A DNA stretch of 20,000 nt from Elsinoe ampelina (lineage: Eukaryota): the NCBI GenBank assembly GCA_010093995.1, contig ML992510.1:746177-766176 (forward strand), read 5' to 3'. A model generated the notes under the pieces. The model was not told the origin of the DNA. It saw only the letters and a list, made by a program, of their open reading frames with translations, and ran no database searches. Positions within the stretch are counted from its first letter, which is position 1; every line of letters starts with the position of its first letter. Position numbers and translations under genes: made by a program. Shown piece after piece: positions 1 to 20,000 of this stretch.

Positions 1-141
1 GTTTAGATAGTATATAACTCCGGTAGTTCTACTACCGAAATTAACTATATTATAGCTAGTAGGTAGCTTATAGCCCCGGTAGCACCCGTAGAGAAGAATC
101 TTAGTATAGAGGTAGACAAGGAGGATAGTAAGGACAAGTAG
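1..141 (+). pseudogene. C-terminus of antisense cargo ORF in the Gypsy-1 3' region
   Basis: Frame 1 reads V*IVYNSGSSTTEINYIIASR*LIAPVAPVEKNLSIEVDKEDSKDK* (TAG 139-141), convergent with pol. It de-RIPs to an acidic tail like EEDLGMEVDEEDGEDE. Confidence 0.5.
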
Positions 142-330
142 GCGTATATAAGCTAGGTGTACATTCTTAGCGCTATATCTATAATAAGGCCTTACGTAGA
201 GCATAATAGAGTATAGAGTTTAGGTTAATACCTATAATAGTAGCGTAAGTGTAGCGCTTTATTAAAATATATTTCCCTAGGTAAGGAGTCTACTCTTTAC
301 TCTATTTATATGTTTATATAATCTGTCTAC

Positions 331-3300
331 TTATATGCTTTATAATCCGCGCCTTTAGTAACCTTTCTTAGCTACTCTTAGCTACAACTCGTATATAGTA
401 ATTAGCTCTCTTATATTTACGTAATTCTCTTTAGGTTCCTAGCTATTAAACTTAATAGGCTAGTCCTTCTACTTTACTAAGTAGAATACCTTACTCTTTA
501 TAGTTCTCTTACCTAGGATCTTCTCTACTATCTACTTATCTACTTTGTTAGCGAGAGATATACTCTCTTCTAGCTTCTCGCTAGCTCTACCTATCTATAG
601 TTTAAGAAGAGATATATAAAAGACATTATAGATGCAATAATAACTTAGTAAAGCTAGGCGATACGCCTACGATCTAATTATATTAAGTATACGAAATAGG
701 CTAAGGAATTATAGTTCTATCTTCTTCTTTAGTATAGGTAGCTATAAGTTCTTAGCTAAGAGTAGTACTAAGTTACCTACGCTATATACCCTTAGCGTAT
801 ACTTCCTATTATAGTACTTAGCCTAGTAGGTAGAAGCCTCTTTCTATTGCTCTACTAGCTTCGTATATATGTCTTGTAAGTGTTATACTAACTCCGCTAC
901 TACTAGTACTCTTCTCTCTAAAGTTTTATCCCGAGACTTAATAGCTATTACCTCTAACTCTAGGTAGTAGCTATATATTATTTAGAAGAGGCTTATACGT
1001 AGCGTAGTATAAATGCTATTATTACTTACAAATTCTACTTATAATAGATATTTAGCCTAGTCGTTCTATAGCTCTATATAGTAGCACCTTAGGTACTATT
1101 CTAATATCTAGTTTTACTACTTAGTTTAACTATCTATCTACGGGTAAAAGGCTATACTAAGCCTACGCTTTATATGCGTTTTATAACAGAATTTACTCTA
1201 GAACTAGCTAGTAAAGACCGATCCTTAATTACTTACTATTCCTCTTAGAACACTATAATAGTAAATAACATAGTTACGTAGGATCTCTACTAGCTCTATA
1301 GATATACACTTCTTAGTAGTAGAGATATATAGTAACATCTTAGTGTAATAGTCTATAATTACTAGTACTATATTATAGACGCTACTACCTTACTTACTTA
1401 GTAGTAGATTAGTAATAAAATCTATTATAATTTCTTACTATAGGCGGTCTAGTATTAGTAGCGTACGTAGCTTACTATAGGCGTAATAGTAGCGCGCCTT
1501 ATACTTCTAGTAAACTTAGTATAACTATACGTAGTTATTAATGTCTTTTCTTATAGTTGCCTAGAAGTACTTTTATAAGAGAAGTTTAAGCGTCTTATCC
1601 TTACTAAAGTAACTAGCCTATTCGCTATTATAGTATATATATAGTACCTACGCCTTAAGTGCGCTATTATTTAGAATAACTAGTAACTCTTTATAGAAGA
1701 GAAGATTATCTTATATATTCTATAGCGCTCTACTCTTGTCTCTACTACTCCCCGCTTACGAATATAGCTTTATAAACTTAGGGTCTTATCCTTATAGTAG
1801 CTCTACTACTAATATTAGGTTAGTAGATAGATCTTTAAAGAGATTCTCTCTCGTAGTTACTATAACTATAACTCGCTAGGTCGTTATAAGCCCCTAGGAG
1901 TTCTTAGAAGAGAAGTCGCTACTATATAGCGTATAGGCAGCCTAGGCCTATTCTAGGGCAGCCTCGTATATAGTGTAGATATGTCTAATAAGCGAGGTAG
2001 CTTCCTTAACATCGGTAGTTTAGTCCTATATACGAAGCTTATTCTAAAGGGTAGAAAGGAGATATAATACCTCTTACTCTTCTACTACGTAGTTAGAGTG
2101 CCTCGAGGGTATATTAGCTAGGTTCCTTATACCTAGCTAATACTCTATTATAAAGTTAAAAGTAGTAAGGAAGGTAGCCTAGTAAGCTTATTAGCTATTT
2201 AGCTATTTTAGCTTTATAAATCCTCGGAGATTATTATAGTTAGTAAGTACTTAAATTATATATATAGCACCTTCGAGGTAGTATTACTATTGCTTAAATA
2301 CATATATAATTACTAATAACTCTTAGTTGTATGTCTCGTAGTTATACTCTACTAGGATAAACTTCCTTAACTAAAAGGCTATAGGGTACTAAGTACTATT
2401 AAATAGTTAGGACAGAATTGCTACTACTATAAACTTTAATATATCGCTTTTAATATATAAGGGTAGCGTAGGATCGTAGTAGCGGAGGATAGAGGCACGT
2501 ATAAATATGTCTCTAATGTCCTTAAATGTCTACTATTTACTTATGCCCTATACGAAAGAGCTATACTTATAACTTTTAACTAAGCCTTTAAGGAGGCTAA
2601 AGAGGAGAGTAATAATCTTAGAGTAATACTATATAAAGTAGCAGTAGAAATTTATAAAGCTAGTAAACTACTAGACTTTATAATAACTCTTCGGCCTTAG
2701 TTAATCCTTAATTGTAGTTACTCTACTTAGATCTATTAAGACGCCTATAGTAGAGATAATATAGCTAAGGAATTCTATCTCCTTAGTAAAGAATTTATAT
2801 TTCTTAAGGCTAGTATATAAAGTAAACTTCTATAGCCTCGCTAGGATCTTATATATATAATATATATAGTTCTCTCTTAAGTTACTATAGATAAGAATAT
2901 TATTAAGGTAGACGATATAGATAGTATTAACTAGTCTACCTAGCGCTTTATTAATACACGCTTAGAAGGTAGCTAGGGCGTTAGTTAATCTAAAAGGTAT
3001 AACTAAATACTTAAAATAGCTATAGTACGTATAGAATGTAGTTTTCTACTTATCGCTACGCTTAATAGAGATCCTATAGTAGGTATTTTTTAGATCTAAC
3101 TTCGAGAACTACTAGGCTTACTTAAGCTAATTAAGTATCTCGCTAATAAGTAGAAGTAGGTAGTAATTCTTAATAGTTACCTCGTTTAAGCCTTAATAAT
3201 CTATATATAAGCCTAGACTACTATCTTTCTTAGGCACGAATAGGATAGAAATACTTACCTCGCTTATAGAGTGCCTAATTTACCTATTTAATTAAGTAGT

Positions 3301-4037
3301 CTCGAGATAGTCCTTAAGCACCTTAAGCTCCTTAACTAAGAGATTATATAAGGGCTAGAATAAAGGCCTCTTACCTAGCTCTAGCTTAATTACATACTCT
3401 ACGCCTAGTAGGCGTAGTAGATTTATAATATCCTTATAGATAAAGACGTTAAAGAACTCTACGAACTTTAATAGTAGAGCTAGGTCGCCTATAGCGTAAG
3501 TGTAGTCCTTAGATAGAGTCTATACTATAGCGTATATTCTCGGCTTATTCTTAAGGTCCTTTATAAAGTCTTCTAGTTCGCATAAGTAAACTATATATAA
3601 GAAGTAGCTATATAACTAGTTATCTATAGCGCTATCTATAATTATATACTATCTTCTCCGCTATAGGCGCTCTAAAATAACTAGAGGGCCTAGTCCTAAG
3701 TCTATAGCGTAGAAGAGGCCGATTGTCTCTCTAAGGTTACTATAGAAGTCTACTAGACGTACGTAAAGCTAGTATATACCGTAGTAGAATCCGGCTTACT
3801 CTATAAAGGAGAAGATACTTAAATACTAAGTATGCTTAACTCTTAGCAGATTATAACGAAGAGTAAATACCTAAGATATAAGATTAACTTCTATATAATT
3901 GTCTATAAGAAATATATAGTCTTCGTGCCCTATAGGTACTATAATAGCGCTGTAATAGGGTAGCGATAGATAAGCGTTAATTAGAAGAGAGAAAGGGCTT
4001 AGTTATACTCTTTAGCTAAGCCCTTAGAGTTTCCTAA
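331..4037 (-). pseudogene. pol: Gypsy-1 pol (PR-RT-RH-IN-chromodomain), RIP-inactivated
   Basis: Protease LIDNYIEVN (~LIDSCAEVN) 3883-3909. RT PFRLTNALATF then YLNN (YLDD) 2899-2910. RNase H ETYN*ELL and LTNYNNL ~2190-2455. HHCC zinc finger ~1510-1640. Integrase core SN*GSVFTS and AFYP*IDS*TK ~1120-1240. GPF domain ~600-730. Chromodomain YLVK*KD*P..FNS*EP ~420-490. Protease, RT and chromodomain share one frame. Confidence 0.93.
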
Positions 4038-5207
4038 CTTAGAGTTATTAGACTTATCTACAGTAGTAACCTTATATACTACCTAAGACTCGCTATTCTT
4101 CTATAGGTGCTTCGACCTATACTTTAGCTTAATATAACTAGTTTTACTATAACTATAGTACTTAGCGTCTCTCTTCTACTTATCGGAGGAACTTCTCTAA
4201 CTACTAAACTATTTAATAGGTAGGTTAGTAGCTTCGCGCTTATAGTAAGCTTAAGAGCTACTACTGGACTAGTAGTAGTATTCTCCTCGGGGGCTACTAC
4301 GACTACTATACTTATATAGGTAGTTACTTTTATCTTCTCGTATAGTACGCTTACTACTAGTATAGTCTATAGACTCGATACGTAAGTCTAAAGAGACTAA
4401 CTTCTAGCGTATAGCTAGAATAGTATAGTGTTTAATAATAGTAGTACGTAGCGTAGGCTATAGCTTAGTAAGGAGATAGTATACTCTCTACTCTTTAGAG
4501 TAGAGAGCTAGTTACTCCTCGAGGGTAGCGAGTTCCGAGGCGAAGGCCTAGATAGATTAGCCCTTACGTTATTAGGCTCCCTTATATATAAGAGTTATAT
4601 GCACTTTATAATTAATAGAGTTATTAACTATGTCCTATATAAACTAGCAAAATTACTCCTACGTGTAGCTCTCTAGGCTATCTACGTAGTAGTAGTAATA
4701 CTATATCTTATCTAGCTCGCTAGCGAGGAATATAACTCTATATAGTACCTTCTACTAATTAGTAGAGTAAGCCTTAAGAGCTAGAGTAAAGATAACCTCG
4801 AGATTCTTTAGGAAGAATCTTACCTCTTTAAGTATCTTACCCTAATAGGGATAAGGTTCCCTTAGTTAAGGTTATCTAGAGGATAGTCTTATAAATAGTC
4901 TACCGCTACTATATATGCTCTATATACTAGCGTTACTTACTATAGGCTTAGTAGAAGTACGCGAGCTACGGTCGAAGCCTCCTTAGTAGTATCCTACATT
5001 ACATATATAGTGTATTTACTTAATCTCTTCCTTAAGGCTCTAAGCCTTAAGCTCTAGCTCTAAATACTTACGCTTAGTATATAGGCGTAGTAGCTACTCT
5101 ATAAGGGTCTCTTCTTTCTCTAGGGGAGTCTACTTAATAGAGTCTATTTCTATAACATTAATAACGTAAGGTACTAGCGCCTTACTAATAGAGTTCTAGT
5201 TATCTAT
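3999..5207 (-). pseudogene. gag: Gypsy-1 gag, RIP-inactivated (start approximate)
   Basis: CCHC knuckle YYSYSKTSYIKLKY (~CYSCGKTGHIKPEC) at ~4119-4160. Candidate start ATA(<ATG) at 5207 is in the same frame, and the stop is at 3999-4001. Confidence 0.75.
4029..4035 (-). promoter_or_regulatory. -1 ribosomal frameshift heptamer A GGA AAC (probably G GGA AAC before RIP)
   Basis: Phased X XXY YYZ in the gag frame, and the protease codons lie in the -1 frame. Confidence 0.7.
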
Positions 5208-5275
5208 AGGGTCTAATAGATTACGACTATAGGGGAGTAATTAGAACTATTAAAGCCTTATATTAAAGCTATATA

Positions 5276-5421
5276 TGTTATAATATAAAGAACGCCTATC
5301 TAACTAAATAGTTCGTTAGTAGTAGAACTAATTACTATTAAGTTTAAGGCGTAAGTGCTATATAAGATAAGTAGGTACGTTACGTAAGTAAGACTAGCCG
5401 CTACTAAGTGCCGCCCTAATA
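5276..5421 (-). repeat. Gypsy-1 5' LTR (~146 bp)
   Basis: On + it starts TGTTA and ends TAATA (<TAACA), with an internal TATA-like box ~5359-5366. Gypsy-2 gag resumes immediately at 5422. The second LTR copy is not in the window. Confidence 0.55.
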
Positions 5422-5422
5422 C

Positions 5423-6422
5423 TAGGCCCTTATAGAAGAGCTAGCTTAACTCTACTAGAATAGAGAGTATATAGAGATCTAGAGGGCCCTTATAATTAAG
5501 TGCGAAGAACCCCTTTAGAAGAGGACCTATATCGATATATAGGAATAGTAAGAGAAGTCTAATAATAATAATTAGTTATACTAAGATAGTATCTCTCGAG
5601 GAACCTCTAATCTAGATATCTCTCTAGAGATACTTTCTCTTTAGATTAACCTTAAGAAAGTATAAAAGCTAGAGGTACTAGAGAAACTAAAGAGATATAT
5701 ATACCTCGCCGACGTAAAGGCGTTTATCTAATCGTGCTATACTATCTTTAGGGTCTATAAGTATATCTATCTTACTAGTAGAGATCGAGTCTAGTTTATA
5801 GCTAGCTATCTAGATAGATCCCTTACTATAATATAGAAGAGCTATATTAACAACGTAGAACCTTAGGCTAAGAACTAGAGCTACTTTTAAGAATAGATTA
5901 AAGATTGTATTATAGACAAGAGTAACTAAGCTCTAAAATATACCTAACTATTCTATAATAGCGCTTAGAGGTCGAACTAATTAGTTGCTAAGTTTGCCTA
6001 ATACCTCGAAGAGTACGCTAAGGAAATTAGTAATATTACTATAGATAAGGCTTAGTTTATAAGCTACCTTATTAACGGCGTAAAGCCTACGTATTAATAG
6101 AGCTATATAGCGCTCTAAGACTCTCTAAGGGGTAAAGACAAGGCTATCTCCTACTTTACTTATATTAAGAGTGTATTTAGGAGCTAAGCTATCTCCGAGA
6201 CGATATATATCTCTTACTACTTCGTAGATAAGCTAAAGAGAGGCAACTAGAAATTCTAGAATAACAAAAATAAGAAAAAAAAGAAAGTTTAAAGACCTTA
6301 CGTCTAGGGTTAATATAACTCTAATACTCTATTACCTCGACCTCTTAGAGGTAAAGTACTATAGGTGTAGGTAACCTAGCTATATCTACCCTAACTACCC
6401 TTATAACAAGATAAAAAACTAA
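5423..6422 (+). pseudogene. gag: Gypsy-2 gag (N-terminus cut off)
   Basis: KLEVLEKLKRYIYLADVKAFI*SCYTIF...RV*FIASYL capsid-like segment. CCHC YYRCR*PSYIYPNY (~CYGCGQPGHIRPNC) 6357-6398 and stop TAA 6420-6422. Apparent 1-nt slip in the A-run ~6275-6282. Confidence 0.82.
6413..6419 (+). promoter_or_regulatory. -1 frameshift heptamer A AAA AAC directly before the gag stop
   Basis: ata aaa aac taa in the gag frame. Protease (6551), YIDD (7550) and chromodomain (10172) codons are all in the -1 frame. Confidence 0.82.
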
Positions 6423-9400
6423 ATACTCTAGCTATAGATCTTGCCTCCGTATAGCTAGGAGTATCTAAAGGAGGTCCGCTACTAAGCTAACTAAGGATAG
6501 ACATTTACCTTAGTTAGGAAGGTAGAGCTCTATCTACTAATTACGTAGCTATGTCTCTTATAGATTTAGAGGCTAATATTTATTTTATTAACTACTATTA
6601 CGTAAAGGAGAAAGAAGTTTACCTATGTACTAATAGTATAACGAGAGTAAAGTCCCTTAACTAGTATAAGATACACTTATATAGATACTACTATCTTATA
6701 GTAGAAGCTACTAACTACTATAGCGTTATAAAGGAAGTTTAATAGCACTTCGAGTCGGTAGAGATAAAGAGATATAACTTAGTACTAGGCTAGATATAGC
6801 TCTTTAGTATTAACCTAAACATCGATTAGTAAAGCTAGAGGTAGAGACATTACTCTACTAGCGTTAATATAACGCTCCTAATAGCGGAAGAATTTGCTAA
6901 GGAAATGTTAGAGTAGCTATAGTGCTATATAGTTTTCTTAAATATAATCTATAAAGATAATGCTTTAACGTTATAAAGTAGACTCCTAAGCTAGCTCTAT
7001 AACTTCTTAGATATATTCGATAATAAGGAAGCTATTACTATACTCTCTCTAGCGCTATATAACTACTTAATCGAACTTATTAAAGGGAAGTAACCTCTAT
7101 AGAGACCTATTTACGCCCTTGTAGAGACGGAGCTAAGTACTCTTAGAGAGTACCTAGCTAAGAATTTAAAGCTAGGCTATATTTGCTACTCTACTAGCCC
7201 TATAGAGGCTTTTATCCTCTTTATGCCTAAGGCTAATAAGTCGCTACGTCTCTACGTCGACTACTAAGGTCTTAATAACGTCTTAGTAAAGAACTACTAC
7301 TCTTTGCCCCTTATTACTAAGATACTCGATAGAATCTAGGGGGCTAAAGTATACTTAAAAATAGATCTAAGGGACGTATATTACTATATCTAGATTAAGG
7401 GGAGCGACGAATAGAAGATAGCGTTCCGATATAGATATAGACATTTTAAATACATAGTTATACCTTTTAGCCTTATAAACGCTCCTACTACCTTCTAGTT
7501 ATATATTAGCTAATACCTCGATAGCTTAGTTAATTACTACTATATCGTCTATATAGACGATATTCTTATCTACTCCTAAGATCTATCGTAGTACTATAGG
7601 CATATTAAAGAAGTTCTAGCGTAACTTAGAAAGTATCTTCTTTTTATAAAGGCTTCTAAGTACGCCTTTAAAGTTAAGAAAGTATAGTTTCTAGAATATA
7701 TTCTAGGCCCTAAGAGCGTCTCGATAAAGCTCTAGAGAGTTTAAGCTATCGTAGACTAGCTAGAACCTACTTCTCTAAAAGAACTCTAGATCTTTCTTAG
7801 ATTTATAAACTTTTACTAATAGTTTATTAATAGCTACGTAGAGATAATAAGACCTATAACGTAACTACTTATAGAGAGTAAAAATAGAAAATAGGTAGGT
7901 CCTTTCTACTTTACTAATAGTGCTAGGCAATTATTCTAACATCTTAAAGATTACTTTATAACTGCTTCCCTCCTATAGTTTTTTAATAAAAGTAAGAATA
8001 TAAGAATATATACTAACTCCTCTAGATTTGCTATCTCTAGAATTGCTATATAACTATTTAGCAACGGTAGAGAGAAGGCAGTCTAATAGTACTCTATTAT
8101 GTACTATTTACGGAAACTATAGAGAGTAGAGTTAAACTAGCTTACGTATAACTAAGAGCTACTTACTATCCTCGAGGTAGCGCGCTACTAGTAGTAGTAT
8201 CTCTTCTCTATTTCTTCTACTACTACTATGTTTATAGATTATAATAACCTAAAATACTTCTTAACAACTAAGACGCTCTTAGCTTAATAGGCCTATATTA
8301 GTAAAGAGCTATTATAATATAATATCTAGATTACCTATAACCTAGAGAAGCTTAATTCTACTAATAGACTATTAAGGAGGCTAGACCTAGATACTAGAGA
8401 TAAGTAAGCTAAGGTAGACTTACACCTATAGGTCCTAAGAGACTTATATAAGAGGCTAGAGAGACATCTTCTCCTTAACGCTATAATAGTAGCTAAGTAA
8501 GTTAAGTTAACCTAAGACATATAAGGTAAGATACTAGATATAAACTTAGTAGTTACCGAGGACTCCTTACCGAGATAGTATAGCGAGGTAGAGTATACTA
8601 GGAGATCTAAAGATACCTAAGAGAGTATTATAGCCTAAGGCGAGATACTAGACATAGATATAGAAGCTAAGATAGCTCTCTATAAGGGTAGAGATAGTAG
8701 GTCTACTCCCTTAGAGGTAAGTAGTTCCTTTTACTATTCCCCGTAGATAACTATAGTAGAGAAATTATAGAAAGATTATAGAGAACTTACTAGCTCTAGA
8801 CGTCTATATACAATAGCTACGAAAGAAGACAATACGTATAAAGAGGCATTACCGAGGCTACTTAGCCTAGTAAAGAGACTATAGCGGCGAGATACTATAG
8901 TAGAGATAATACTAAAGCGTCTTAGCGATCCTAAAGAAAAGGAGACTACTAAGAGAGAGAGCTAGAGATAGTAAAACAATAGCGTTCTACTATTCTAAGA
9001 TAAAGTCTTTATCCTAGCTATAAAAATACTAACTACGGAGATACTCTATAGAAATTATAATAATCTAATAGTAGGCTACCTCGGAATAGAAAAGATACTC
9101 TTCGTACTAAAGTAGAAGTACTATTAGAAGGGCATAACGATAGACGTTACTAGATACGTAAATTACTATAATAAGTGCTAAAGAATAAAGGTTCCTCGAT
9201 ATTAGCCCTATAGTAAAATATAGGCTCTAAGATTACCCCCTATTAGAGAAGTACTCTAGTATTAGTTAATAGACTTTATTACTAATTTACCTCTAGCGAA
9301 GGACTAATAGAGCTCCGTTACTAATTTAATTTTAGTACTAGTAGATAAAGTATCTAAATATATTAGATATATTCTAGTAAGAAAAGATATAGAGGCCCGA

Positions 9401-10369
9401 GAGTTAGCCGACATTATAGAGAAAGAGATCCTTAGTTACTATAGGTTCCTAAGAAGCTAGATTACTAATAGGGGTACTTTATTTAAGTCTAAATTTTAGA
9501 CGTTTCTCTACTAGAGATAGAAGGTCTAGAGATACCTCTTAATAGCGTTCTACCCTTAAACTAATAGCGCTATAGAGAGATAGAACTAGATAATCGAATA
9601 GTACCTAAGGGTGTTTATTAATTTCTACTAAGATAACTAGCTATACTAGCTATATTAGGCCGAGTTTGCCTATAATAGCTTCTATAGCGCGTCGCTAGGG
9701 GTAAGCCTACTCTACTATATTTATAGAATAGTTCTATATCTCCCTAATAATATTAAGGCTAACGCTATAGAGAAGAAGGTAGCTCTATAACTACTAGAAG
9801 CACTAGTAGTAGAAGTAAGAGTAAAGGCTCTATAAGACATAAGAGAAGAACTTAAGTAGTATAGGCTTAATGCTATTACGTAGTAGGAGGTATACTATAA
9901 TAAGAAGCACTAGCTAATAAGGTTTAAGAAAGGCTAAGAAGTTATACTAAGTACTAAGAACCTCTAGTCTCTCCGGCTAAAGAAGAAGCTAGTAGCGAAG
10001 TTTATAGGTCTATTTACCGTCGCTAAGACAGTAGGCTACTAAGTATACTAACTTAACCTTCTAGTATATATAAAATCGATCTACTTAATCTTTTACATAT
10101 CTCTCTTTAAGGCTTATTAACGAGGCAATAATATTACTCTACTACTAGTAGAGATTAAGAGGGAAGAAGAATACAAAGTTAAAGAGATAGTTAATAAGAG
10201 CCTTATTAGAGGTAAGACTTACTATAAGGTACTCTAGAAAGGCTATCCTAAAGAGGAAGCTAGCTAAGAGCTAATAGAGCATCTACGGAATACTATTAGC
10301 AAAATTAAGAACTTTAAAAAGAAAAGCCTTATTCTAAGCGTAATAGCGAAGTAACGCTATATTAAGTAA
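6413..10369 (+). pseudogene. pol: Gypsy-2 pol (PR-RT-RH-IN-chromodomain), RIP-inactivated
   Basis: Protease LIDLEAN (~LIDSGAD) ~6557-6577. RT YIDD 7550-7561. RNase H YTNSSRFAI ~8010 and IDYNNLKYF ~8235. HHCC ~9053-9181. IDFITNLP ~9269, ITNRGTLF ~9461, AFYP*TNSAIER*N ~9545-9586. KFIGLFT ~10000. Chromodomain EEEYKVKEI...YKVL*KGYPKEEAS*EL 10163-10290. Confidence 0.94.
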
Positions 10370-10459
10370 GAGGCTTATAAGGCTTAAAGAGCTTAAACTT
10401 ACGCTATAGAGAAAGAGAGAGGTAAGAGAATAGCATAAGATTAAGATTTAAAAAACAGA

Positions 10460-11079
10460 TTATAAGAGGTCTATCTTAACCTTATTCTCTAAATCTTTAG
10501 GCTTATCTAGCTCTACTAGCTTAAGGACAAGATTACTATATAGAGACTCTATTATATCTTTATTAGACTTCTAAATATAGATAGTAGTATTAAAGGCATG
10601 CTAAGTTAAAATAAGACTCTTAATAAGTAGAGTATAAGAGATATTATACTACTATAGGTTAGCTATTATAGCGACGATATAGAATAAAAACATATAAAGA
10701 CATATTTAGTATAGAAGTAGTAATAGAGGCAGTAGCGGAGGAAAGTACCTACGTCGTTATTATAAATATATTAGGACTAAGCCTACTTATAGTTAAGGTA
10801 TATAGTAGTCTAGCGGTAAATATAAGACTTACACTAATAGTAGTACACCGGCGTAGCGTAGTTAGAAGGGGTCTAGAACTATAGGAACTTAGGCTTAGGA
10901 CTCTTACTATAGTTATAGTTATAGTTACTAGAGGAGTCTCTACCGAATCTAAGATAGTATATTACCCCTGTAATAACATTAGTAATCTCTAGAGACTTAA
11001 AGGACATAGCGTAGCTAGAGTTATTAATCTAATTAGTAGGGACATAGTAGGTTATAATACTATAGAATTCTAATATTAT
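10460..11079 (-). pseudogene. Antisense cargo gene B: intron-containing Cys6 (Zn-cluster-like) protein relic
   Basis: In-frame ATG at 11007, with a possible RIPped ATG at 11079. Tyr/Cys spacing x2-x20-x11-x2-x6 at 10842-10702, one Cys still intact. Intron 10695-10649 (ATATGT<GTATGT, GCTAAC, TAG) restores a nearly open exon 2 ending TAA 10462-10460. Confidence 0.68.
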
Positions 11080-11100
11080 AGTGTAAAAGTTAAGCGGATA

Positions 11101-11184
11101 GAGAGAATAAGAAGTCTAAGGAGATTAAGGAGAAAGAGAGAGAAGATAGTATATATATGTCGCTTCTCTATTGTCTAAACAATA
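11101..11184 (-). promoter_or_regulatory. Putative promoter of cargo gene B
   Basis: TATTGTctaaACAATA inverted pair 11169-11184, TATATATA 11150-11158, then a CT-rich tract (minus strand) leading to the ORF. Confidence 0.55.
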
Positions 11185-11480
11185 ATACTCTTCTTAATAA
11201 TATCTACCTTAATAATAGACCCTTAATAATATAATAATACCTAAGGGGATAATAGGCCCCGATAAAGAAGCAAGAGCAATCTAAGAGCTATAGCTTCGCT
11301 AGGGGCTATAAAATAAAAGACTTAGGCAAAAAGAAGAAGTAGAAAGCAAAAAACTCTATAAACTCTAAAAGGCAAAATCTATCTCTAATAGCTCTAAGCT
11401 ATTATATCGACTAAGAAACTTATACTTATACCTAGAAACCTAAATACTATACTAGTAACTACTCTAACTCCCTAAATCTC

Positions 11481-12166
11481 TTAAGCTCTACCGGTAGTAC
11501 TACTAGAGGCCGATATAGTAGCGTAAGCAAAAGCCTTCCTAGTAAGCTAGGCGCTAATAATCTTTACTAATAACTCGTTAGTCTTTTAGCTACTAGTAAG
11601 TAAGGTAGCGAAGTCCTTATAGGTTATAGATAGATCGTTATCGAAGTTAAATTCTTCTCTCTTTCTCTTCTTCTTAGTAGAAATATATTTAGCCTTAAGA
11701 GTAGTAATGTATCTCGCTATTATAGTATAGGCGTCGTAAACATACTACTTATTAGCTAGTATAGCGTCTAACTCCTTATCCTTATCGGTATAACGATAGG
11801 CGTAGATAGCCTTATAAGTAACTCTAGTAGCCTTAAGTTTATTACTATAGCGCTTAAGGAACTAGGAGTATTAGTATCGCTCTAATAGAGAATAGATATT
11901 AAACCTATAAAGGCATAGCTATTATAGTAGAGCTAGTAGAGCTAGTAGGAGGCATAATTATTCTACTCCTTATAGTAGTAGAGGTCGTTAGTAAAGTTAA
12001 TATTATTCGATATTATATATTTAATAGCGAGCTTAAGGTAGTTAATATAAGGGCCCTCTATAATAAGAACAATATTAGCGTAACTAGGAGACAATAGCGA
12101 AGTATCTTCGCGCTAGATCTAGCTATAGTTAGGTCTACTAGAGGTAGTACTTACTAGAGAAGACAT
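11481..12166 (-). pseudogene. Antisense cargo gene A: intron-containing Cys6 (Zn-cluster-like) protein relic, ~212 aa, with NLS-like KKKRKR
   Basis: Intact ATG TCT at 12166. Tyr spacing x2-x20-x9-x2-x6 at 12049-11915. A 47-nt intron 11908-11862 (ATAGGT<GTAGGT, CTAAT<CTAAC, TAG) corrects the frame. Exon 2 has only three RIP-type stops in ~126 codons. Confidence 0.72.
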
Positions 12167-12279
12167 ATTAAAAGAAGGTTCCTAATAGCGGAGAAAGAAT
12201 AATAAGACGTTAGAGAGATACTAGGAGATATTAGTATAGAATATAAGGTAGAGAGTAGAGAGCTATACTTTAGTAAAAG

Positions 12280-12374
12280 AGTTTTTAGAAGAAAGAGAAG
12301 AGATATTCTAACAAGGGAGAAGCCTTATATATATATTAAAGCGTTCTATTGTCTTATTATTATAGACAATAGAA
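12280..12374 (-). promoter_or_regulatory. Putative promoter of cargo gene A
   Basis: Perfect 11-bp inverted repeat TTCTATTGTCT (12344-12354) / AGACAATAGAA (12364-12374), TATATATATAT 12326-12336, then a CT-rich tract on the minus strand. Confidence 0.58.
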
Positions 12375-12668
12375 GGCTCCTATACTAATTAAGAGAAAAA
12401 GAATACGAGAAGAAATAAGGTAGCCTACTAATTATTATTATAGCTAGCATAATAGTAGCTAGAAAATAAAGAAATAACGTTGTTATATATACTAGGTAAG
12501 GTAAATTTATATATAAAGTTAAGTAGAGCTACACTTTATATTTCTTACCTAATACTAAGACTCTATAAACGGACCTTCGTATATAGCGTAATAACGCTCC
12601 GAAGGTAGTCTACTCTTTCTCTACTACTAGAGGGTTTTAATAAGGGACTAGCCTAAGGATAGGCCTAT

Positions 12669-12683
12669 AGAGAAAAAGACAAT
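12669..12683 (+). other. Polypurine tract of Gypsy-2
   Basis: AGAGAAAAAGACAAT immediately before the LTR start. Confidence 0.7.
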
Positions 12684-12891
12684 TATAATAGGAACTATAA
12701 ACTTATAACTAGTAGATAGACGTCGGAGATACGTTACTCTAGCTACGATCCTATATAGTATATATAGTAGTTCCTAACCTTCTATAGAGAGGTTAGGAAT
12801 TTATCGTTGTATTTATATAGTATATACTTCTCCTCTATTACTCCTCTGTCTTAGAGACATTATACCTGCCCTATCTAGATACTCTATTATA
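12684..12891 (+). repeat. Gypsy-2 3' LTR (208 bp)
   Basis: 8-bp terminal inverted repeats TATAATAG...CTATTATA (<TGTAACGG...CCGTTACA), preceded by a PPT. Internal TATA and 10-bp hairpin. Gypsy-3 pol resumes at 12892. Confidence 0.75.
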
Positions 12892-14909
12892 GTAAGGCTA
12901 TATAACTACTCTATCTTCGGGTACTTATAGACTAAAGCGCCGTCCTACTACTCTAGTATAGAGGCCTCTATTATTGTTATATTCTTTAAATAATCTAGCT
13001 ATCGGCTAAGAGCGTCTACTCTACTGTTCTTTAATCCCTTAATATAGTAGATCTAAAAGTTATAGCTTATAAGTGTTTCTAACTATCGAACCTATTATCT
13101 ATTAAGAACCTTAGTTATTATCTAATATAGAAGGTTCTTATAGTCGGTATAGACTTATACTAGTAAGGTTGTCTCTTCTAGGTATACTTTCTATTTATAG
13201 AATACTTCTATAATTATAAGTAGTTCCTTATTATATATATCGTAGTTAAGTTTAGGTCTAGTTATCTTTTGTAAGTAGTATACGATCGAGTAGTGTCGTT
13301 CCTTAGTATCTTTCTACGCTAGATACGCTTCTATTATAAAGTCTAAGGCATCTATTTCTAGTAGTACTTATCGGTCTAGATCGAAGAGTACTAGGATAAG
13401 TACTATTATAAGCCTAAGCTTTAGCTCCTTAAAGGCCTACCTATATCTCTTATTAAATATAAAGCTAGTCTCTTTCTTCGTAAGGTTAGATATTAGTATA
13501 ACTACTTTAGAGAATCCCTTAATAAACTTATAGTAGTAGTTAAAGAATCCTAGTAGTACTTAGACCTCCTTAACTATAGTAGGTTCTAGCTAGTTATTTA
13601 CTAATTTGATCTTCTTTAGATTAGGTCTAATACTATTAGTAGATATAATATAGTTTAGAAATTATATCTTATACTTATAGAACTTATACTTAGAGAGTTT
13701 TACTAGTAGGTCTTTCTCTTTTAGTTTCTATAGTACTTTATAAATATGTCCTATATGTTTATTATACATCTTTAAGAAGATAATAATATTATCTAAATAT
13801 ACTAAGATAAAGTTATTAAGGTATTCTTATAGAGTGTTATTAATTAACTCTTAGAAGGTTATAGAAGTATTAGTTAACCTAAAGAGTATAACGAGGTACT
13901 TATATAAACTCTATTACGTCCTAAAAGCCGTTTTCTACTCCTTACTCTCCTTTATTTATACTTAATAATAGACATCCCTAATATTAATTATAGTAAACTA
14001 TTTAGCTCTAAGTAGTTAGTCTTAAAGTTTATTAATCCTTAGTAGAGGATAGTAATTCTTCCTAGTAAGTATATTAAGTTTCTAGTAATTAATATATATT
14101 TATAATGTTTTATCTTTTTTAGGTGTAAAAAGCACTCTATATATAATAGGTAATTTTAATAGTTATATAAATCCTTTAAGTAAGTACTTATCGATATAGT
14201 TCTTAAGAATATTCTTCTCTTATTTCGATAGTAGTATAAGACCTTAATAGTGTATTAGAGATTTATTCTCTTCGAAAGGTATTTTGTAATTCTATAGTCT
14301 ATATTAGAGTAAGGCTATAATATCTTTCCTTTCTTTAAATAAGTTCTTAAAGTCTTTATATTCTAGCGAAAGTACTTAATCGCTTATACTAGTAATAGCC
14401 CTAACTATTAGTTATACCTATACTATCCTTATAGTTAGTATCTATAGAGCCGATTATACTCCCTATATCTTATAATTATACTTAGGAAATTCGAGTGTTT
14501 CTTTAATCTAATCTATGTCTAGATTATATTACTAAAGCTAGTCTATACTAAGTACTATATTATACTATATATCTACTATATCGATCGATTGTTTTTCTAT
14601 ATATGTTTCGATTTTAATTATAACATTTTGTAGTTCCTAAGTAACTTTCCTATTCTTTCTTATAGGGGTTCTATCTACTATAGTAAGTAGGTAAAGTAAC
14701 TCCTTCTAATGTTAATAAGGTTTAAGCTAATTAGTAACTATTATAGAGACGTAGCTATAGTTAGCTCCTAAGTCTATTATTACTCTTACCTTATTTCCTT
14801 ATATTTAGACTTCTAGTATAAAGTAATTTAATATATAGATCTTTATTATATTAAGGCTTTAGCTAGTATTATTGTCTTACCTTATTAGGTAATAACTAGC
14901 TAGTTTTTT
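12892..14909 (-). pseudogene. pol: Gypsy-3 pol (PR-RT-RH), truncated before integrase
   Basis: Protease IIDLGAN (~MIDSGAN) ~14760-14780. RT YLDN (YLDD) 13788-13799. RNase H end KGLKNSRVDALSR*LDY ~12990-13040. Confidence 0.92.
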
Positions 14910-16882
14910 ATTATTATAGCTCCTTAGATAAGTAGCTAATCCCTTCCTATACGTATCTACTATTAGTACTATATCTATTAGGCAAGTTATGTCTTATTAT
15001 TACTTAATATAGTAAGGTAAACTTCTAGCGCCTAAGTCCCTTAGTAACTATAAAGTCTAATAATTCTCTACTAGTTATACTAAGTAGTGTCGTATACCTA
15101 TATTAGTATAACTATTCCCTCTAGGTGTAGCTAGGCGTTAGTATTAAAGACGAAAGTAAGTTATATAGATTTATCTTATTATGTCCTATTCTAATAGTAG
15201 GTGTATATTATTATATAATTCCTCTATATCTCTATAAGGTATACTTTAAGTTGTTTGCCTAGTAGTAGTATATCGTTATTGTCGGATAAGTCCTTATCTA
15301 TGTTATTATACTATAGTTGTTTAGTATATTCCTTGTTATATTTCTCTTTATTACTACTACCCCTAGTATAGTTATAGTTAGTAAGGCTATACTAAGTATA
15401 CTCTCGTACTTAGCTATAGGGAATAGTACTACCTATCTCGATTACTAAGAAGTCTATAGTATATTTAAGACTAATAGTATCTTCTCTAAGTATATTATAT
15501 AAGTAGATAGTATAGTACTATTTGTAATTTAGATTTATATACTTCTAGAGCGATATATAATACACTTTTCCTTATAGTTTGCTATAAGGGCTAAAGGTAA
15601 GACTACTATATTATTATATAGTACTTACGTCCTAATACTTTGTCTTAATAATTGTATATTAGTAATTATTGCTAACTACCTTCTAAGGTTAGTTACTATT
15701 ACTACTAATTATAGAGAGCCTTTCTAGGTTAAGCTCCTAGTCTAGCTATTTTATTAGTTACCTACGCTTAGATAGCTTATATAGAAACTAACTAGATCCC
15801 TACTTGTCTAATAAATAAATATAATAAGAGTTATTATAATATACTATCTATAATAGCGTTATATATTAGCTTTGTTATTTACTATTCGTTATAGAGATAT
15901 TAAGTATAATATCTAGAGAGGATTCTCTTACCTCTCGAGTCGTTATAGACTTCTTCTATATTTCCTTACCTACGCTAAAGGTTATTAGGTCTTCTATAGT
16001 AGTATTAGCCTTTTTCTCTACTAGCCTAGTAACTATTATATATAATCTATTAGCTAGCGCCTCTTATCAGTAGTCCCTAGCCTAATACCTAGGTCTTTTA
16101 TACTTAAAATATAGATTATCTTATCTATACTTCTCTTTCTCTTTTCTACTAAGGAACTTTCTTCTATAGCTCTAGCCTTATACCTATAAGGGGCAACTTT
16201 CGCGTATAGCGTTAAGTTCTATAGAGTCTCTATAGTTTTAGGAGAAATACGTATATCTAGTATTTGCCTTATATCCTCTATAACGTTCTATACGTCGTTT
16301 GTAAAGTTAGTTATTAATAGTAATTATAGTATTTACTAGTTCTTAGAGGCTATTAGGTAGCTCGAGTATTATTTAGTCTTTAACTAAGTCGCTTAGTCCT
16401 TAGTAGAATACTAAATATTTAGCACTATTATTCTAATCTAGGTATATTACGAGTTGTTAGAACTAGAAATAGTACTAGGCTATAGACCTACGTTATTATA
16501 GTTATTAGATCTTTGTTATAGTAATGTATTTCTTATTAGATACGTTAAAGACTTACTTAATCTTCGCCTAGAAGATATTTAAGCTCTTAAAGATAGCCTT
16601 TATATCTAGGCTTAGTTATCTATCTAGGTAGCTACTTATATAAGGCTTAAACTACCTAAAGGTAGCGCCTTTAAGGTATATCCTAGTATAGAGGACCTTT
16701 ACTACGTCGTTAGCGTACTTATCCCCTTCTAGAGCAAAGAAGGCTTTAAGTTAAATAAGAAAGCGCCTTAAGTAGATATAGTTTCTATAGAAGAGTTCTA
16801 CCTCTAGCTTAGGCTTACTCTATCCTTCCCCTATACTAAGAGACCTTCTATATTTGCCTAAGGTTAAACTAGTAGTAGATAT
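14900..16882 (-). pseudogene. gag: Gypsy-3 gag with ~390-codon Cys/His-rich C-terminal extension (~660 codons)
   Basis: ELFYRN..YLRRFLI*LKAFF...KVLYTRIYLKGATFR*FKPY capsid segment, SIELNA (~PMELDA) ~16215, CCHC YFKYKRPRY*ARDY 16111-16070. The same frame continues to AAA AAC TAG at 14908-14900. Confidence 0.82.
14903..14909 (-). promoter_or_regulatory. -1 frameshift heptamer A AAA AAC before gag stop TAG
   Basis: In the gag frame, and the protease Asp codon (14774) is in the -1 frame. Confidence 0.8.
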
Positions 16883-16998
16883 ATTATTAATAGTAAGCTT
16901 TTCTAGCTTACTAGCGATTAAAGATACTAATAGTAACTTAAAGCAAGAGTTACTTATTAACCTTGTAGTATACTATACTATAGTAAAGGTAGTTAAAA

Positions 16999-17566
16999 TG
17001 TTATAAACCGTCTAAATATAGTCTATACTAGTAGTCTAAGCTAAGCTAAGAACGAGGTAGTTCTACTTCTATAGTAGTATAGCACTAAGGTAAGAGTTAG
17101 AGAAGGTATNNNNNNNNNNAATATAGTCTATACTAGTAGTCTAAGCTAAGCTAAGAACGAGGTAGTTCTACTTCTATAGTAGTATAGCACTAAGGTAAGA
17201 GTTAGAGAAGGTATATCTTATAGATAATAAAGTATAATTAGATAGTATTATAAAGGGCAGCCTTAGTAATACTAGTATTTACTATCTAGACAAGGTTAAC
17301 TACGGTACTTATATAAGGTAAGGACTATTTCTATATATATATACTTTAACCTACGTACTCTATATACTCTATACGCTCTATAGCGAGAGTTGTAATAAGT
17401 ATAGAGCGCTTAGCTATTCCTAACCCGCGCGCTCTATAGCTTTAGGGGTAGAGCTACTAGAGAAGATAGAGAACTAAGTAAATGTTAGGCTAGGTTACGT
17501 AATAACCTTAGTAGTTTAATTAGTCCTAACGTCCCTACGTTCTAGCTGTCCTACTAGTTCGTAACA
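16999..17566 (-). repeat. Gypsy-3 5' LTR (463 bp after removing gap artefact)
   Basis: Ends TGTTATAAAC...GTTCGTAACA (10-bp inverted repeat allowing RIP). Homologous to 18560-19022. Confidence 0.92.
17110..17119. other. Assembly gap flanked by an exact 95-bp overlap (17015-17109 = 17120-17214)
   Basis: Ten N. Removing the gap and one copy gives 463 bp, the length of the sister LTR. Confidence 0.93.
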
Positions 17567-18559
17567 ATTAGCTATTATAATAACCTAGTTATAATAAAGA
17601 GTATATATAAGAATTACTCTTCTAGTTTTAGCTTTTAGTATTAGTATAAAGGTTCTAATAAAGTTAATACCTACTCTTTAAGTAAAGCCTCTTATAGTCT
17701 AATAAGCCTTATATCTTTTAACTTTACTATTAGTAAGCCTCTTAGTCTTAAAGATCTATTTACCTATTATTAGCCTAATACCTCTTAGTACCTATAATTT
17801 CTTAATAATTAAAAAAGTTTTAGAGTTAGTTAGAGCCTTCTACTCTACCTCTATTATAGCTTACTAGTAATAACTTTTAGGAGAGAATAGTATATCTTTT
17901 ACTATTTATAGGTCTAGCTTAAAATTAATAGCTATAGATCTAATAATCTTACTATTATTAAGTTTCTTATAATTAATCTAGCGATATATTCTAAGGGACT
18001 TTCTAATAGTTTCTTATAGTAAGAGAGATCTCTTCCTTTTACTAGTTAGAGGTTATATATTAAATAGTGTAATAAGGTAGTTAATATCCTTATTCTATAT
18101 ATATATTAGTAGTTAATTAATATTAACTATAGGATTAAAGGTTAAATATAGTTTACTAATAACTTTAGGTAGTAGTATAGTAAGGTCTTTACTCTTATAA
18201 TTAGTAATAATAAGTTACTCTCTCTATTTATTAATAGATTAAGGATCTAGTTTAGAATATTAGTGTTATACTCTCTATTCTTTAATAGGGGTAGATAATT
18301 ATTATTTATATCTAGGGATTAAAGAGTAGTTAGATGTTAGTTGTTTAGCTTAAGGTTATTTAGCCTAAGTAGTTTATAGATTCTTATAACTAAAGGGTAG
18401 TTAATTATAGCTATAGCCTTAATTATAATTACTACTAAATATGTTATAATTGCTACTAAATGTGTTATAATTACTACTAAATATCTACTTCCCCTAAAGC
18501 TATAAAGCCTTAGGTTATTATACCTATAGGATATATAGCTATTTAATAACTTATGTCGC
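17567..18559 (-). mobile_element. Ty1/Copia relic: integrase-RT linker and N-terminal RT
   Basis: Minus strand reads LDL*IVKDIL...Y**AIIEVE*KAL...GK*IFKTK...RYKAY*TIRGFT*RVGINFIRTFIL (~17590-17920). This matches the copia RT signature KWIFKTK...RYKAR..ARGFTQ..GIDF..TFAP. Confidence 0.88.
18423..18485. repeat. 21-bp tandem repeat x3
   Basis: ttataattactactaaatatg / ttataattgctactaaatgtg / ttataattactactaaatatc. Confidence 0.88.
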
Positions 18560-19022
18560 TATTACGAACTATCTAAACATAGCCTACGCTAGTAGTCTAA
18601 GCTAAGCTAAGAACGAGGTAGTTCTACTTCTATAGTAGTATAGCACTAAGGTAAGAGTTAGAGAAGGTATGTCTTATAGATAATAAAGTACAATTAGATA
18701 GTATTATAAAGGCTAGCCTTAGTAATACTAGTGTTTGCTATCTAGACAAGGTTAACTATAGTACTTATATAAGGTAAGGACTATCCCTATATATATATGT
18801 TCTTTATTGTGTTCTTTATATACTCTATATACTCTATAGTAAGAGTCGGAAGTAACATAGAGTATATGTCTACTAGTAACCTATACGCTTTATAGTTTTA
18901 GAAGTAGAGCCGCTAGAGAAGATAGAGAACCGAGTAAATATTAGGCTAGGTTACGTAATAATCTTAGTAGCTTAATTAGTCCTAACGTCCCTATATTCTA
19001 GCTGTTCTACTAGTTTATAACA
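18560..19022 (-). repeat. Gypsy-4 3' LTR (463 bp)
   Basis: TATTACGAAC...GTTTATAACA, colinear with the Gypsy-3 LTR. Confidence 0.92.
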
Positions 19023-19037
19023 TTACTCTCCTTCTTT
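19023..19037 (-). other. Polypurine tract of Gypsy-4
   Basis: Minus strand AAAGAAGGAGAGTAA abuts the LTR TG. Confidence 0.8.
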
Positions 19038-19096
19038 AATCGAGTTGTCCTAATAAGTAAGTATTCTTCCTTGCCTTTATACGCTATATACTAAAC

Positions 19097-19645
19097 ATGT
19101 CTCCTAGTTATTAAAGGCATAGTAAATCTAGTATATCTATATAAAAGAATCTCTTAGAGTTTATTAAACTATTTAGAACTAATATGCTATAGGCTTATTC
19201 TTGTTACAAATTAAAGAGACTAGACTATAAGGTCTATATTTAGTTAGGTATCTATAGCTAGTATATCGTAAGTAACTACTTAGGTTATAATATTTAAGTA
19301 ACAAAATTAGAATAGTAGCGTCTCTAGTCTAAGTATATTTACTTATAAAAGGAATTAGTTATAGCTAAGGCTACTAGAAATAAAGCTAAAGAGGCTTATA
19401 AAAAGGCAAAAGAGGCTCGTTAGAGAGCTATAGATAATAAGCTTTAGCTCTATAAGGAGATATAAAAGTTAGAGGACAAGGCGGAGAAAGTAATCTTTCT
19501 AAAGGAGACTTGTATTTAAGTCTTAAAGTAGAAGAAAATACTATTATTAGTAGATCTCGTCCTTCTATAGAATTAGTAATTGTTTATGCCTAACTCTAAT
19601 TAGAGTTCTTTATTTAGTAACGATTAAGGTACTTCTATTACCTAA
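19097..19645 (+). pseudogene. Antisense cargo ORF D: Zn2Cys6-like cluster plus coiled coil (end approximate)
   Basis: Intact AAC ATG TCT at 19097. Tyr spacing x2-x6-x8-x2-x7 at 19196-19288, followed by an Ala/Glu/Lys-rich helix (KELVIAKATRNKAKEAYKKAKEAR...KLEDKAEK). Confidence 0.75.
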
Positions 19646-20000
19646 GCGATCTTCCTTAGGCATTCTCGTTTTTGTTTAGTGTTAGGAGTGCTAGGTCTAT
19701 CTAGTCGATTTACTTAGGATAGGTTTTCGATCTAGTAATCTAGAATTACTTACGAGGTAAGGTACTTCTCTAGTTCCTATATTACTTCGCTATACTAATG
19801 TCCCTTCTAGTGAATAAGATAGTAGTGTTTTTCTTTTATAAGTTTATAATGTAACACCCTTTCTATCTTATACCGTAGCTCCTATGTTTCTTTATCTAGT
19901 TCGATAGGTCTAGGTATAGTATTCTATAGTACTTTCTCTAGTAGTAATATATAAAAGACTAGATAGATCCTTATATATCTTAGTAGTTCTAGTTTATATA
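19640..20000 (-). pseudogene. pol: Gypsy-4 pol C-terminus (integrase GPY/F region and chromodomain)
   Basis: YKLELLRYIRIYLVFYILLLEK (~YKLELP.HMRIHPVFHVSLLEK) ~19930-19998 and YKIERVL...YYLIH*KGH*YSEVI*ELEKYL ~19757-19875. Confidence 0.9.

What the first reader, a model, noticed from the sequence alone, without database searches (positions are those of the whole stretch)
1..20000. Antisense cargo recurs in three unrelated Gypsy families within one window
Seen: all three visible Gypsy 3' regions (different LTRs and divergent pol) contain an ORF antisense and convergent to pol, and the three complete ORFs all have an inferred Cys6 motif. Inference: antisense Cys6 accessory genes may be a widespread, under-annotated third gene of fungal chromoviruses, hidden because RIP converts Cys to Tyr.
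Basis: inference. Interest (0 to 1): 0.7.

Follow-up and report, generated by a model that had tools for sequence, protein, structure and literature searches.

The report
Backward six-cysteine genes in fungal retrotransposons
Three mutation-wrecked fungal jumping elements each carry, backwards behind their polymerase gene, the remains of a small extra gene for a six-cysteine, zinc-cluster-like protein, and intact relatives show that two whole lineages of such elements keep such a gene while other lineages lack it.

Summary
The window is a RIP-mutated nest of three chromovirus families (A, B, C/D). D's antisense frame is a dead copy of a real family: 20 relatives, with Cys at its six Tyr columns, then a coiled coil and acidic tail. 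B carries two spliced genes with an intron two residues after Cys6, the position found in 10 of 10 intact loci of a second type. A's gene is spliced elsewhere, and its motif lies outside the window. In 55 un-RIPped elements a strict Cys6 pattern occurs antisense after pol in 16, sense in 0, inside pol in 0. On an integrase tree type I fills one clade (with C/D) and type II another (with A, B); other clades lack both. The types do not align (83) but both model as weak Zn2Cys6-like folds. RIP is not the main reason they are missed, and the [CY] pattern alone is not diagnostic. An antisense gene in this slot is known (brtn of Boty). The scan found this before, here and in other genomes. Function is untested.

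The parts
1..6 (+). 3' end (acceptor AG) of the second intron of element A's antisense gene; the donor lies 44 nt upstream of the window
   Evidence: donor, branch and acceptor kept between subfamilies A and A', with a 1-nt indel inside
7..230 (+). last exon remnant of A's antisense gene, acidic tail; end uncertain; six-Cys motif upstream of the window (C-x2-C, intron, C-x12-C-x2-C-x6-C)
350..5247 (-). element A gag-pol, RIPped; RT about 2750-3190, chromodomain 388-531
5248..5434 (-). element A 5' LTR (A is inserted in B)
5435..10350 (+). element B gag-pol, RIPped; RT-RH about 7230-8270, integrase-SH3-chromodomain 8999-10330
10465..10648 (-). B2 exon 2 remnant (frame chosen by inference; end uncertain)
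10649..10695 (-). B2 intron (44 or 47 nt), donor two residues after Cys6; GT donor in 2 of 12 copies, GCTAAC branch
10696..11007 (-). B2 exon 1 with six Tyr/Cys columns at 10833, 10824, 10764, 10734, 10725, 10704
11480..11861 (-). B1 exon 2 remnant, helical and charged, with a KKKRKR basic stretch; end uncertain
11862..11908 (-). B1 intron (47 nt), donor two residues after Cys6; GT donor in 1 of 12 copies
11909..12166 (-). B1 exon 1 with six Tyr/Cys columns at 12049, 12040, 11977, 11947, 11938, 11917
12681..12891 (+). element B 3' LTR, preceded by a purine tract; B is inserted in C
12892..16998 (-). element C gag and 5' part of pol (cut by B; the rest lies upstream of the window)
16999..17566 (-). 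element C 5' LTR, with an assembly gap and a 105-nt duplication
18559..19021 (-). 3' LTR of D, a second copy of family C; purine tract at about 19023-19037
19097..19640 (+). D antisense gene, type I, single exon: C-x2-C-x6-C-x8-C-x2-C-x7-C, coiled coil, acidic tail; end between about 19640 and 19710
19690..20000 (-). end of D's pol (SH3 and chromodomain region)

Best explanation
Two lineages of ascomycete chromoviruses each carry a lineage-specific accessory gene between pol and the 3' LTR, on the opposite strand. It is read from its own antisense promoter at or near the 3' LTR (inferred) and gives a separate, often spliced mRNA; the introns survive retrotransposition because they are backwards in the element's genomic RNA (inferred from the orientation). 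The product is a small protein with a six-cysteine, Zn2Cys6-like knot followed by helices: in type I a long coiled coil and an acidic-aromatic tail (shown by alignment and model). Most likely it works in the nucleus as a trans-acting regulator of its own element, an activator or a counter to silencing, probably as a dimer (inferred, untested). The window holds RIP-killed copies of type I (D), of type II (B1 and B2, a tandem pair) and of a type II-like gene with other intron positions (A). That the genes are real: about 0.95 for D, 0.85 for B1 and B2, 0.75 for A. That the role is regulation of the element's expression: about 0.55.
For: Conservation: 20 relatives of D at E<=0.001, best 4.7e-20; six invariant Cys in 21 of 21 type I rows and 10 of 10 type II rows. 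Context: all 15 type I HMM hits in 82 loci are antisense and 700-1450 nt behind the integrase motif. Clade pattern: 14 of 14 loci with a visible 3' stretch in the type I clade (support 1.00) and 10 of 12 in the type II clade (0.93). Splicing signal: GT two residues after Cys6 in 10 of 10 type II loci and 0 of 8 type I loci, with exon 2 opening on [VIL]P for 9 of 10; an NCBI gene model (P0042) is spliced at the same donor. A model that recovers 8 of 10 intact loci hits only B1 and B2 in the window, 0 in 30 kb of flank and 3 times in 20 simulated windows. Selection: D 12/15 third-position transversions; in intact L107, 11 of 14 coding differences among four public data sets are synonymous; A against A' 46/102 third-position transversions and in-frame indels of 9, 6 and 6 nt in exon 2. 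Fold: all 16 listed Foldseek rows for type I and all 10 for type II, and all 4 VIA-align rows for type II, are Zn2Cys6 proteins. Type I start codons lie 49-141 nt from the LTR edge in 8 intact loci, 76 nt in D. Plant antisense genes in this slot have their own promoter and a nuclear product (PMC7264820).
Against: Fold matches are weak (best E 0.34 for type I, 2.2 for type II; Z 2.0-2.3), and the wide search of the whole type I model returned only generic coiled coils. The Gal4-type recognition lysine four residues after Cys2 (position recalled) is present in 3 of 21 type I and 0 of 10 type II rows, the proline before Cys4 in none, and LTR-edge windows show no excess of CGG pairs over shuffles. 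No direct intact homolog of B1, B2 or A was found. B1 and B2 show no third-position excess; A's excess is weak over the well-aligned part (31/71, p=0.045). The GT donor survives in only 1 and 2 of 12 copies of B1 and B2. 33 of 55 loci lack such a gene, so it is not needed by all chromoviruses. A, B, E and F group together partly through RIP bias.
Confidence: 0.55

Rival explanations
1. The proteins are real but act later in the cycle, as particle or integration accessories (binding Gag, integrase, the element RNA or chromatin to help nuclear entry or target choice), not on transcription.
For: Canonical DNA-recognition residues are mostly missing and no CGG pairs are enriched at LTRs; the coiled coil is long, about 80 residues; nuclear import and related roles are proposed for plant antisense ORFs (PMC7264820).
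Against: The acidic-aromatic tail of type I (151 D/E, 22 K/R and 93 F/W/Y in 945 tail residues) and the cluster-helix-tail order resemble fungal activators; a separate antisense unit suits a regulator made independently of gag-pol (inference).
Confidence: 0.22
2. The genes are fragments of host zinc-cluster genes captured once or twice and carried along, with no benefit to the element.
For: The fold is a host-type fold; introns point to a DNA-level or antisense capture; several clades do without them; family E and L125 carry other, cysteine-free antisense frames.
Against: Kept with six invariant Cys and a fixed intron position across whole integrase clades; synonymous bias in D and L107; P0002 finds 105 places in the own genome, all with internal stops and none an intact host gene.
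Confidence: 0.1
3. The antisense RNA is the working part (it pairs with the genomic RNA and feeds small-RNA control) and the protein is secondary.
For: Convergent layout; the L099 gene overlaps the pol end; the idea is discussed for plant elements (PMC7264820).
Against: Protein-level conservation and synonymous bias.
Confidence: 0.06
4. Only D is real; the motifs in B1, B2 and A are chance products of tyrosine-rich RIPped DNA.
Against: The combined motif-donor-branch-acceptor model hits exactly B1 and B2, in 12 and 11 of 13 copies; B1 and B2 match each other in register over Cys4 to the donor (48 nt, 75%); A keeps its six columns and both introns across subfamilies about 70% alike.
Confidence: 0.07

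Closest known systems
[quoted passage not shown] 2011, PMID 21802103; not held, seen only as title and citation in PMC7264820, PMC8365987, PMC4227169)
   Same: Antisense gene between pol and the 3' LTR of a fungal chromodomain-bearing Gypsy element; absent from the current B05.10 annotation.
   Different: Its sequence could not be fetched, so homology to type I or II is untested. The passages read give it no six-Cys motif, no fold and no clade survey. Here there are two types, tandem paralogs and conserved introns.
Plant antisense additional ORFs (aORF-3R): Grande gene23, RIRE2, Retand, PvRetro13 (PMC7264820, parts 1-2 of 3 read)
   Same: Same slot and orientation; family-wide conservation; own antisense promoter and nuclear product shown for Grande; function unknown.
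   Different: Plant lineages; the domains named there are SMC-like and transposase 28, not a cysteine cluster. No homology tested.
Fungal Zn(II)2Cys6 regulators (Gal4, Leu3, Pho7, Ppr1, Hap1; Pfam PF00172)
   Same: Six Cys; type I spacing x2,x6,x8,x2,x6-7; cluster followed by helix and acidic tail; these proteins fill the fold-search lists.
   Different: Below the Pfam cut-off (best 17.5 bits against 21); recognition Lys and Pro mostly absent; no middle or ligand-binding region; type II has loops of 10-20 and 7-32 residues.
DUF3716 (PF12511)
   Same: Small fungal six-Cys domain; weak hits for 1 of 17 type I relatives (E 0.005), 1 of 10 type II clusters (E 0.057) and an Atlas row at 0.81.
   Different: All below the cut-off of 22 bits; a lead only.

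Membership tests
Chromovirus (Ty3/Gypsy with chromodomain) | LTRs, purine tract, RT-RH-IN order, C-terminal chromodomain | tested here: met
   (chromodomain over cut-off for A, B and C/D copy L080)
Antisense additional ORF between pol and 3' LTR (brtn / aORF-3R class) | Position and antisense orientation | tested here: met
Antisense additional ORF between pol and 3' LTR (brtn / aORF-3R class) | Present and conserved in most copies of the family | tested here: met
   D in 31 of 31 copies examined, B1 and B2 in 12 of 13, A in 23 of 25 (two loci lacking the stretch were left out)
Antisense additional ORF between pol and 3' LTR (brtn / aORF-3R class) | Antisense transcript from its own promoter | tested here: inconclusive
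   only contigs of runs not on record as RNA could be laid, on relative L107
brtn itself | Sequence homology to the Boty brtn protein | not testable with these tools
   paper not held; no named sequence on hand
Zn(II)2Cys6 regulators (PF00172) | Six Cys in C-x2-C-x6-C-x5..12-C-x2-C-x6..8-C spacing, type I | tested here: met
   20 of 21 rows; one has x8 in the first loop
Zn(II)2Cys6 regulators (PF00172) | The same spacing, type II and A | tested here: not met
   first loop 10-20 residues in 10 of 10 intact rows; 19-20 in B1 and B2
Zn(II)2Cys6 regulators (PF00172) | Pfam score over the cut-off | tested here: not met
   0 of 17, 0 of 18, best 17.5 bits against 21
Zn(II)2Cys6 regulators (PF00172) | Binuclear cluster fold | tested here: inconclusive
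   only Zn2Cys6 proteins listed, but E 0.34-8 and Z 2.0-2.3
Zn(II)2Cys6 regulators (PF00172) | Basic recognition residue after Cys2 and proline before Cys4 (positions recalled from Gal4) | tested here: not met
   Lys at +4 in 3/21 and 0/10; Pro at Cys4-2 in 0/21 and 0/10
Zn(II)2Cys6 regulators (PF00172) | Zinc binding, dimer formation, binding to CGG sites | not testable with these tools
   needs bench work; the dimer prediction was not run
DUF3716 (PF12511) | Pfam score over the cut-off | tested here: not met
   best 17.2 bits against 22

The most novel reading that the evidence does not exclude
Two large lineages of ascomycete chromoviruses each encode their own zinc-cluster transcription factor or anti-silencing protein from an intron-bearing antisense gene, a Tat/Tax-like accessory system for fungal retrotransposons, kept since the lineages arose and duplicated in family B. 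If it counters RNAi or heterochromatin silencing, it would be an element-borne counter-defence and a source of the many small orphan six-Cys proteins in fungal gene catalogues.
Probability: 0.4. Interest if true: 0.75.

Novelty: new variant of a known kind. Interest (0 to 1): 0.52.

Why it matters
Fungal Gypsy elements are modelled as gag-pol only. A conserved, clade-wide accessory gene gives a direct handle on how they switch on or evade silencing, and the fixed intron position gives a marker to annotate it even in RIPped genomes. It also suggests that some 'hypothetical' small zinc-cluster genes in fungal annotations (such as P0042) are transposon parts, not host regulators. The slot is known from Boty and plants; the two-type, clade-mapped, six-Cys picture was not found in ten full-text searches, which cover open-access papers only.

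Tried and rejected
Pfam on RIPped D copies: nothing under E 0.06. Profile comparisons of RIPped B1 exon 1 with intact type II and with D: nothing; the type II HMM finds nothing in the window: Tyr for Cys removes the signal. Viral contigs: no D relative by the peptide pattern, no B integrase relative (one search was off frame), although L099 there does carry a frameshifted type I gene. RNA: no RNA holder listed for L107; the four contig sets laid show no joints and may be DNA: no evidence either way. Dimer prediction not run. First tree run timed out; FastTree on 380 columns was used, 11 of 82 loci left out as under 150 aa. CGG-pair counts at LTR edges: no excess in 8 type I and 6 type II loci. 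Search for split clusters (as in A) in the 33 negative loci: three loose half-matches, none convincing. A first, tighter type II model recovered only 2 of 10 intact loci and was partly shaped on B, so the looser one is quoted. Atlas structure search for P0042: all TM by query 0.31 or less. Muszewska 2011 (PMC3248453, passages only): no mention of antisense or zinc; Novikova 2010 (PMC2864245, passages only): an 'add. ORF of unknown function' in a figure legend, orientation not stated; its supplements were not opened and may list such ORFs. Porquier 2021 supplements (2 files) hold no 'brtn'; its Figure S1 could not be seen. Rejected readings: B2's motif in the frame of 10679 (its columns also read Arg or His among copies); one universal third gene; RIP as the main cause of under-annotation. 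Clade names (Pyret, Maggy and so on) were not assigned, as no reference element was on hand.
Full report
Setting. The window is G000:C10:746177-766176 and is RIP-mutated throughout: TpA/ApT 1.65-2.58, CpA and TpG almost gone. Comparison with its flanks and with other copies shows a nest. Element C (minus strand) was cut by element B (plus strand, 3' LTR 12681-12891, 5' LTR 8.7 kb upstream of the window). B was cut by element A (minus strand, 5' LTR 5248-5434). D (18559-20000) is the 3' end of another family C copy. RT passes the Pfam cut-off in A, B and C, and chromodomains pass it for all three families. RT identities are 40-48% and the LTRs share at most 19 nt.

D. Read with X at stops, 22 copies gave a profile that found 20 proteins at E<=0.001 among 1.84 billion. 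Full-length relatives have Cys where D has Tyr, in the spacing x2,x6,x8,x2,x6-7, then a long helix and an acidic-aromatic tail; one hit, P0020, itself shows Tyr at some of these places. Among 31 own copies the six columns read Tyr or Cys (one Ser), with Cys still present in four columns; a lightly mutated copy on C86 shows three of them next to an integrase and chromodomain on the other strand. Transversions, which RIP does not make, fall on third positions in 12 of 15 columns. D is a dead copy of a real gene (type I).

Survey. An exact integrase pattern gave 2 loci in viral contigs and at least 115 in metagenomes, of which 80 were fetched. The set is biased towards un-RIPped, ascomycete-type integrases. 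Of these 82 loci, 55 extend 1400 nt or more behind the motif. With longer loops and the type I HMM, 12 of 55 carry type I, 10 carry a second kind (type II) and 33 neither. After collapsing at 70% integrase identity, 8 clusters are type I, 9 type II and 9 negative. On the integrase tree (80 rows, 11 short loci left out) type I is confined to one clade (support 1.00) that holds C/D, where 14 of 14 loci with a visible 3' stretch have it. Type II is confined to another clade (0.93) that holds A and B, where 10 of 12 long loci have it; L100 ends early and L103 seems interrupted by an insertion (inference). The other clades mostly have their purine tract within about 300 nt of the pol end and no such gene.

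Type II and B. In 10 of 10 intact type II loci a GT donor follows two residues after Cys6, and for 9 of 10 a downstream acceptor opens an exon with [VIL]P; 0 of 8 type I loci have GT there. The NCBI model P0042 (named Stemphylium lycopersici hypothetical protein) is the gene of L107, has four exons with GT or GA-GT shifted donors and AG acceptors, and uses this donor; 11 of 14 coding differences among four public data sets are synonymous. B's 2.3-kb interval holds two genes of this build. B1 has six Tyr/Cys columns (x2,x20,x9,x2,x6), then a 47-nt intron at 11908; B2 has x2,x19,x9,x2,x6, then an intron at 10695. A model asking for six Tyr/Cys, donor, branch and acceptor recovers 8 of 10 intact loci, hits only these two places in the window, none in 30 kb of flank and 3 times in 20 simulated windows. 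B1 and B2 match each other in register from Cys4 to the donor (48 nt, 75%), which fits a tandem duplication, though AT-rich DNA inflates that score. Against: GT survives in only 1 and 2 of 12 copies, no codon-position signal was seen, and no direct intact homolog was found.

A. Only the last exon is in the window. In 23 copies the upstream part has C-x2-C, an intron (GTAAGC in 21 of 23), then C-x12-C-x2-C-x6-C. A subfamily about 70% alike keeps the six columns, both introns' ends and the frame, with indels of 9, 6 and 6 nt in exon 2 and a modest third-position excess. A second intron ends at window position 6. A lacks the Cys6+2 intron, so it is type II-like by clade and spacing only.

With Tyr allowed it matches 23 times in the window, 18 of them outside the antisense 3' intervals, and in 6 of 25 simulated 2.3-kb strands. 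It would not serve for a survey of RIPped libraries without the splice rule or a profile.

One gene or two. Types I and II do not align beyond a C-x2-C stretch (probability 7%; 8 bits at best). Both models draw only Zn2Cys6 proteins from Foldseek, and type II also from VIA-align, but weakly; the whole type I model gave only coiled coils in VIA-align. Neither passes the PF00172 or DUF3716 cut-off. A common ancient origin and two captures both remain open.

How it likely works. Shown: position, orientation, conservation, splice signals, domain order. Inferred: an antisense promoter near the 3' LTR (type I start codons are 49-141 nt from the LTR edge); survival of the introns because the genomic RNA carries them backwards; a nuclear, zinc-binding, probably dimeric product that regulates the element's expression. 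The missing Gal4-type recognition residues and the lack of CGG pairs at LTRs argue against a plain Gal4-like activator and leave room for a silencing suppressor or a particle accessory. No transcript evidence was obtained.

Known ground. An antisense gene in this slot is described for Boty (brtn; Zhao 2011, seen only as a citation in PMC7264820, PMC8365987 and PMC4227169) and for several plant elements (PMC7264820, parts 1-2 of 3 read). Whether brtn is type I or II could not be tested. Ten full-text searches found no paper describing the six-Cys motif or a clade survey; subscription papers are not covered. Earlier notes of this scan report the same kind of gene in this and other genomes; they gave me the brtn lead and are not independent support.

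Verdict. Real, recurrent and clade-wide, but not universal, not one demonstrably homologous gene, and in a slot already known. New variant of a known kind; interest 0.52.

Noticed in passing
window 17567-18558: A separate AT-rich repeat of about 950 bp between the two C-family LTRs, with 40 scored copies at 85-95% in the genome; kind not determined.
   Followed up: partly
window 17001-17214: A 10-N assembly gap flanked by a 105-nt duplication inside C's 5' LTR, probably a scaffolding artefact.
   Followed up: no
L086 (G000:C33) 603-1350: A fourth, lightly RIPped Gypsy family (E) has an antisense frame rich in Lys, Pro and Ala with no cysteine cluster in view; its 5' end is cut by a C-family LTR. 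L125 has an acidic, Pro/Ala-rich antisense frame also without Cys.
   Followed up: partly
L096 (G000:C1) 2781-4722: A fifth family (F), sister to B on the tree, has a 1.9-kb 3' interval with Tyr-spaced stretches on the antisense strand that the type II model did not call.
   Followed up: partly
L099 5679-6385: An un-RIPped element in the viral collection whose type I gene is frameshifted and overlaps the end of pol.
   Followed up: partly
L106, L132, L135, L172: In this subgroup the pol frame runs 450-560 codons past the integrase motif, through the whole antisense gene, so the two genes overlap fully on opposite strands.
   Followed up: no
L115 and L136: Type I cluster whose frame stops about 20 residues after Cys6, suggesting that some type I genes are spliced too.
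   Followed up: no
P0022, P0023: Shorter members of a type I cluster are named 'multidrug efflux pump subunit AcrA' by their source, a likely mis-annotation from the coiled coil.
   Followed up: no
L081-L084: Several C/D-family copies are cut at the same place inside the antisense gene (window equivalent 19436) next to long N gaps; assembly artefact or a common deletion.
   Followed up: no
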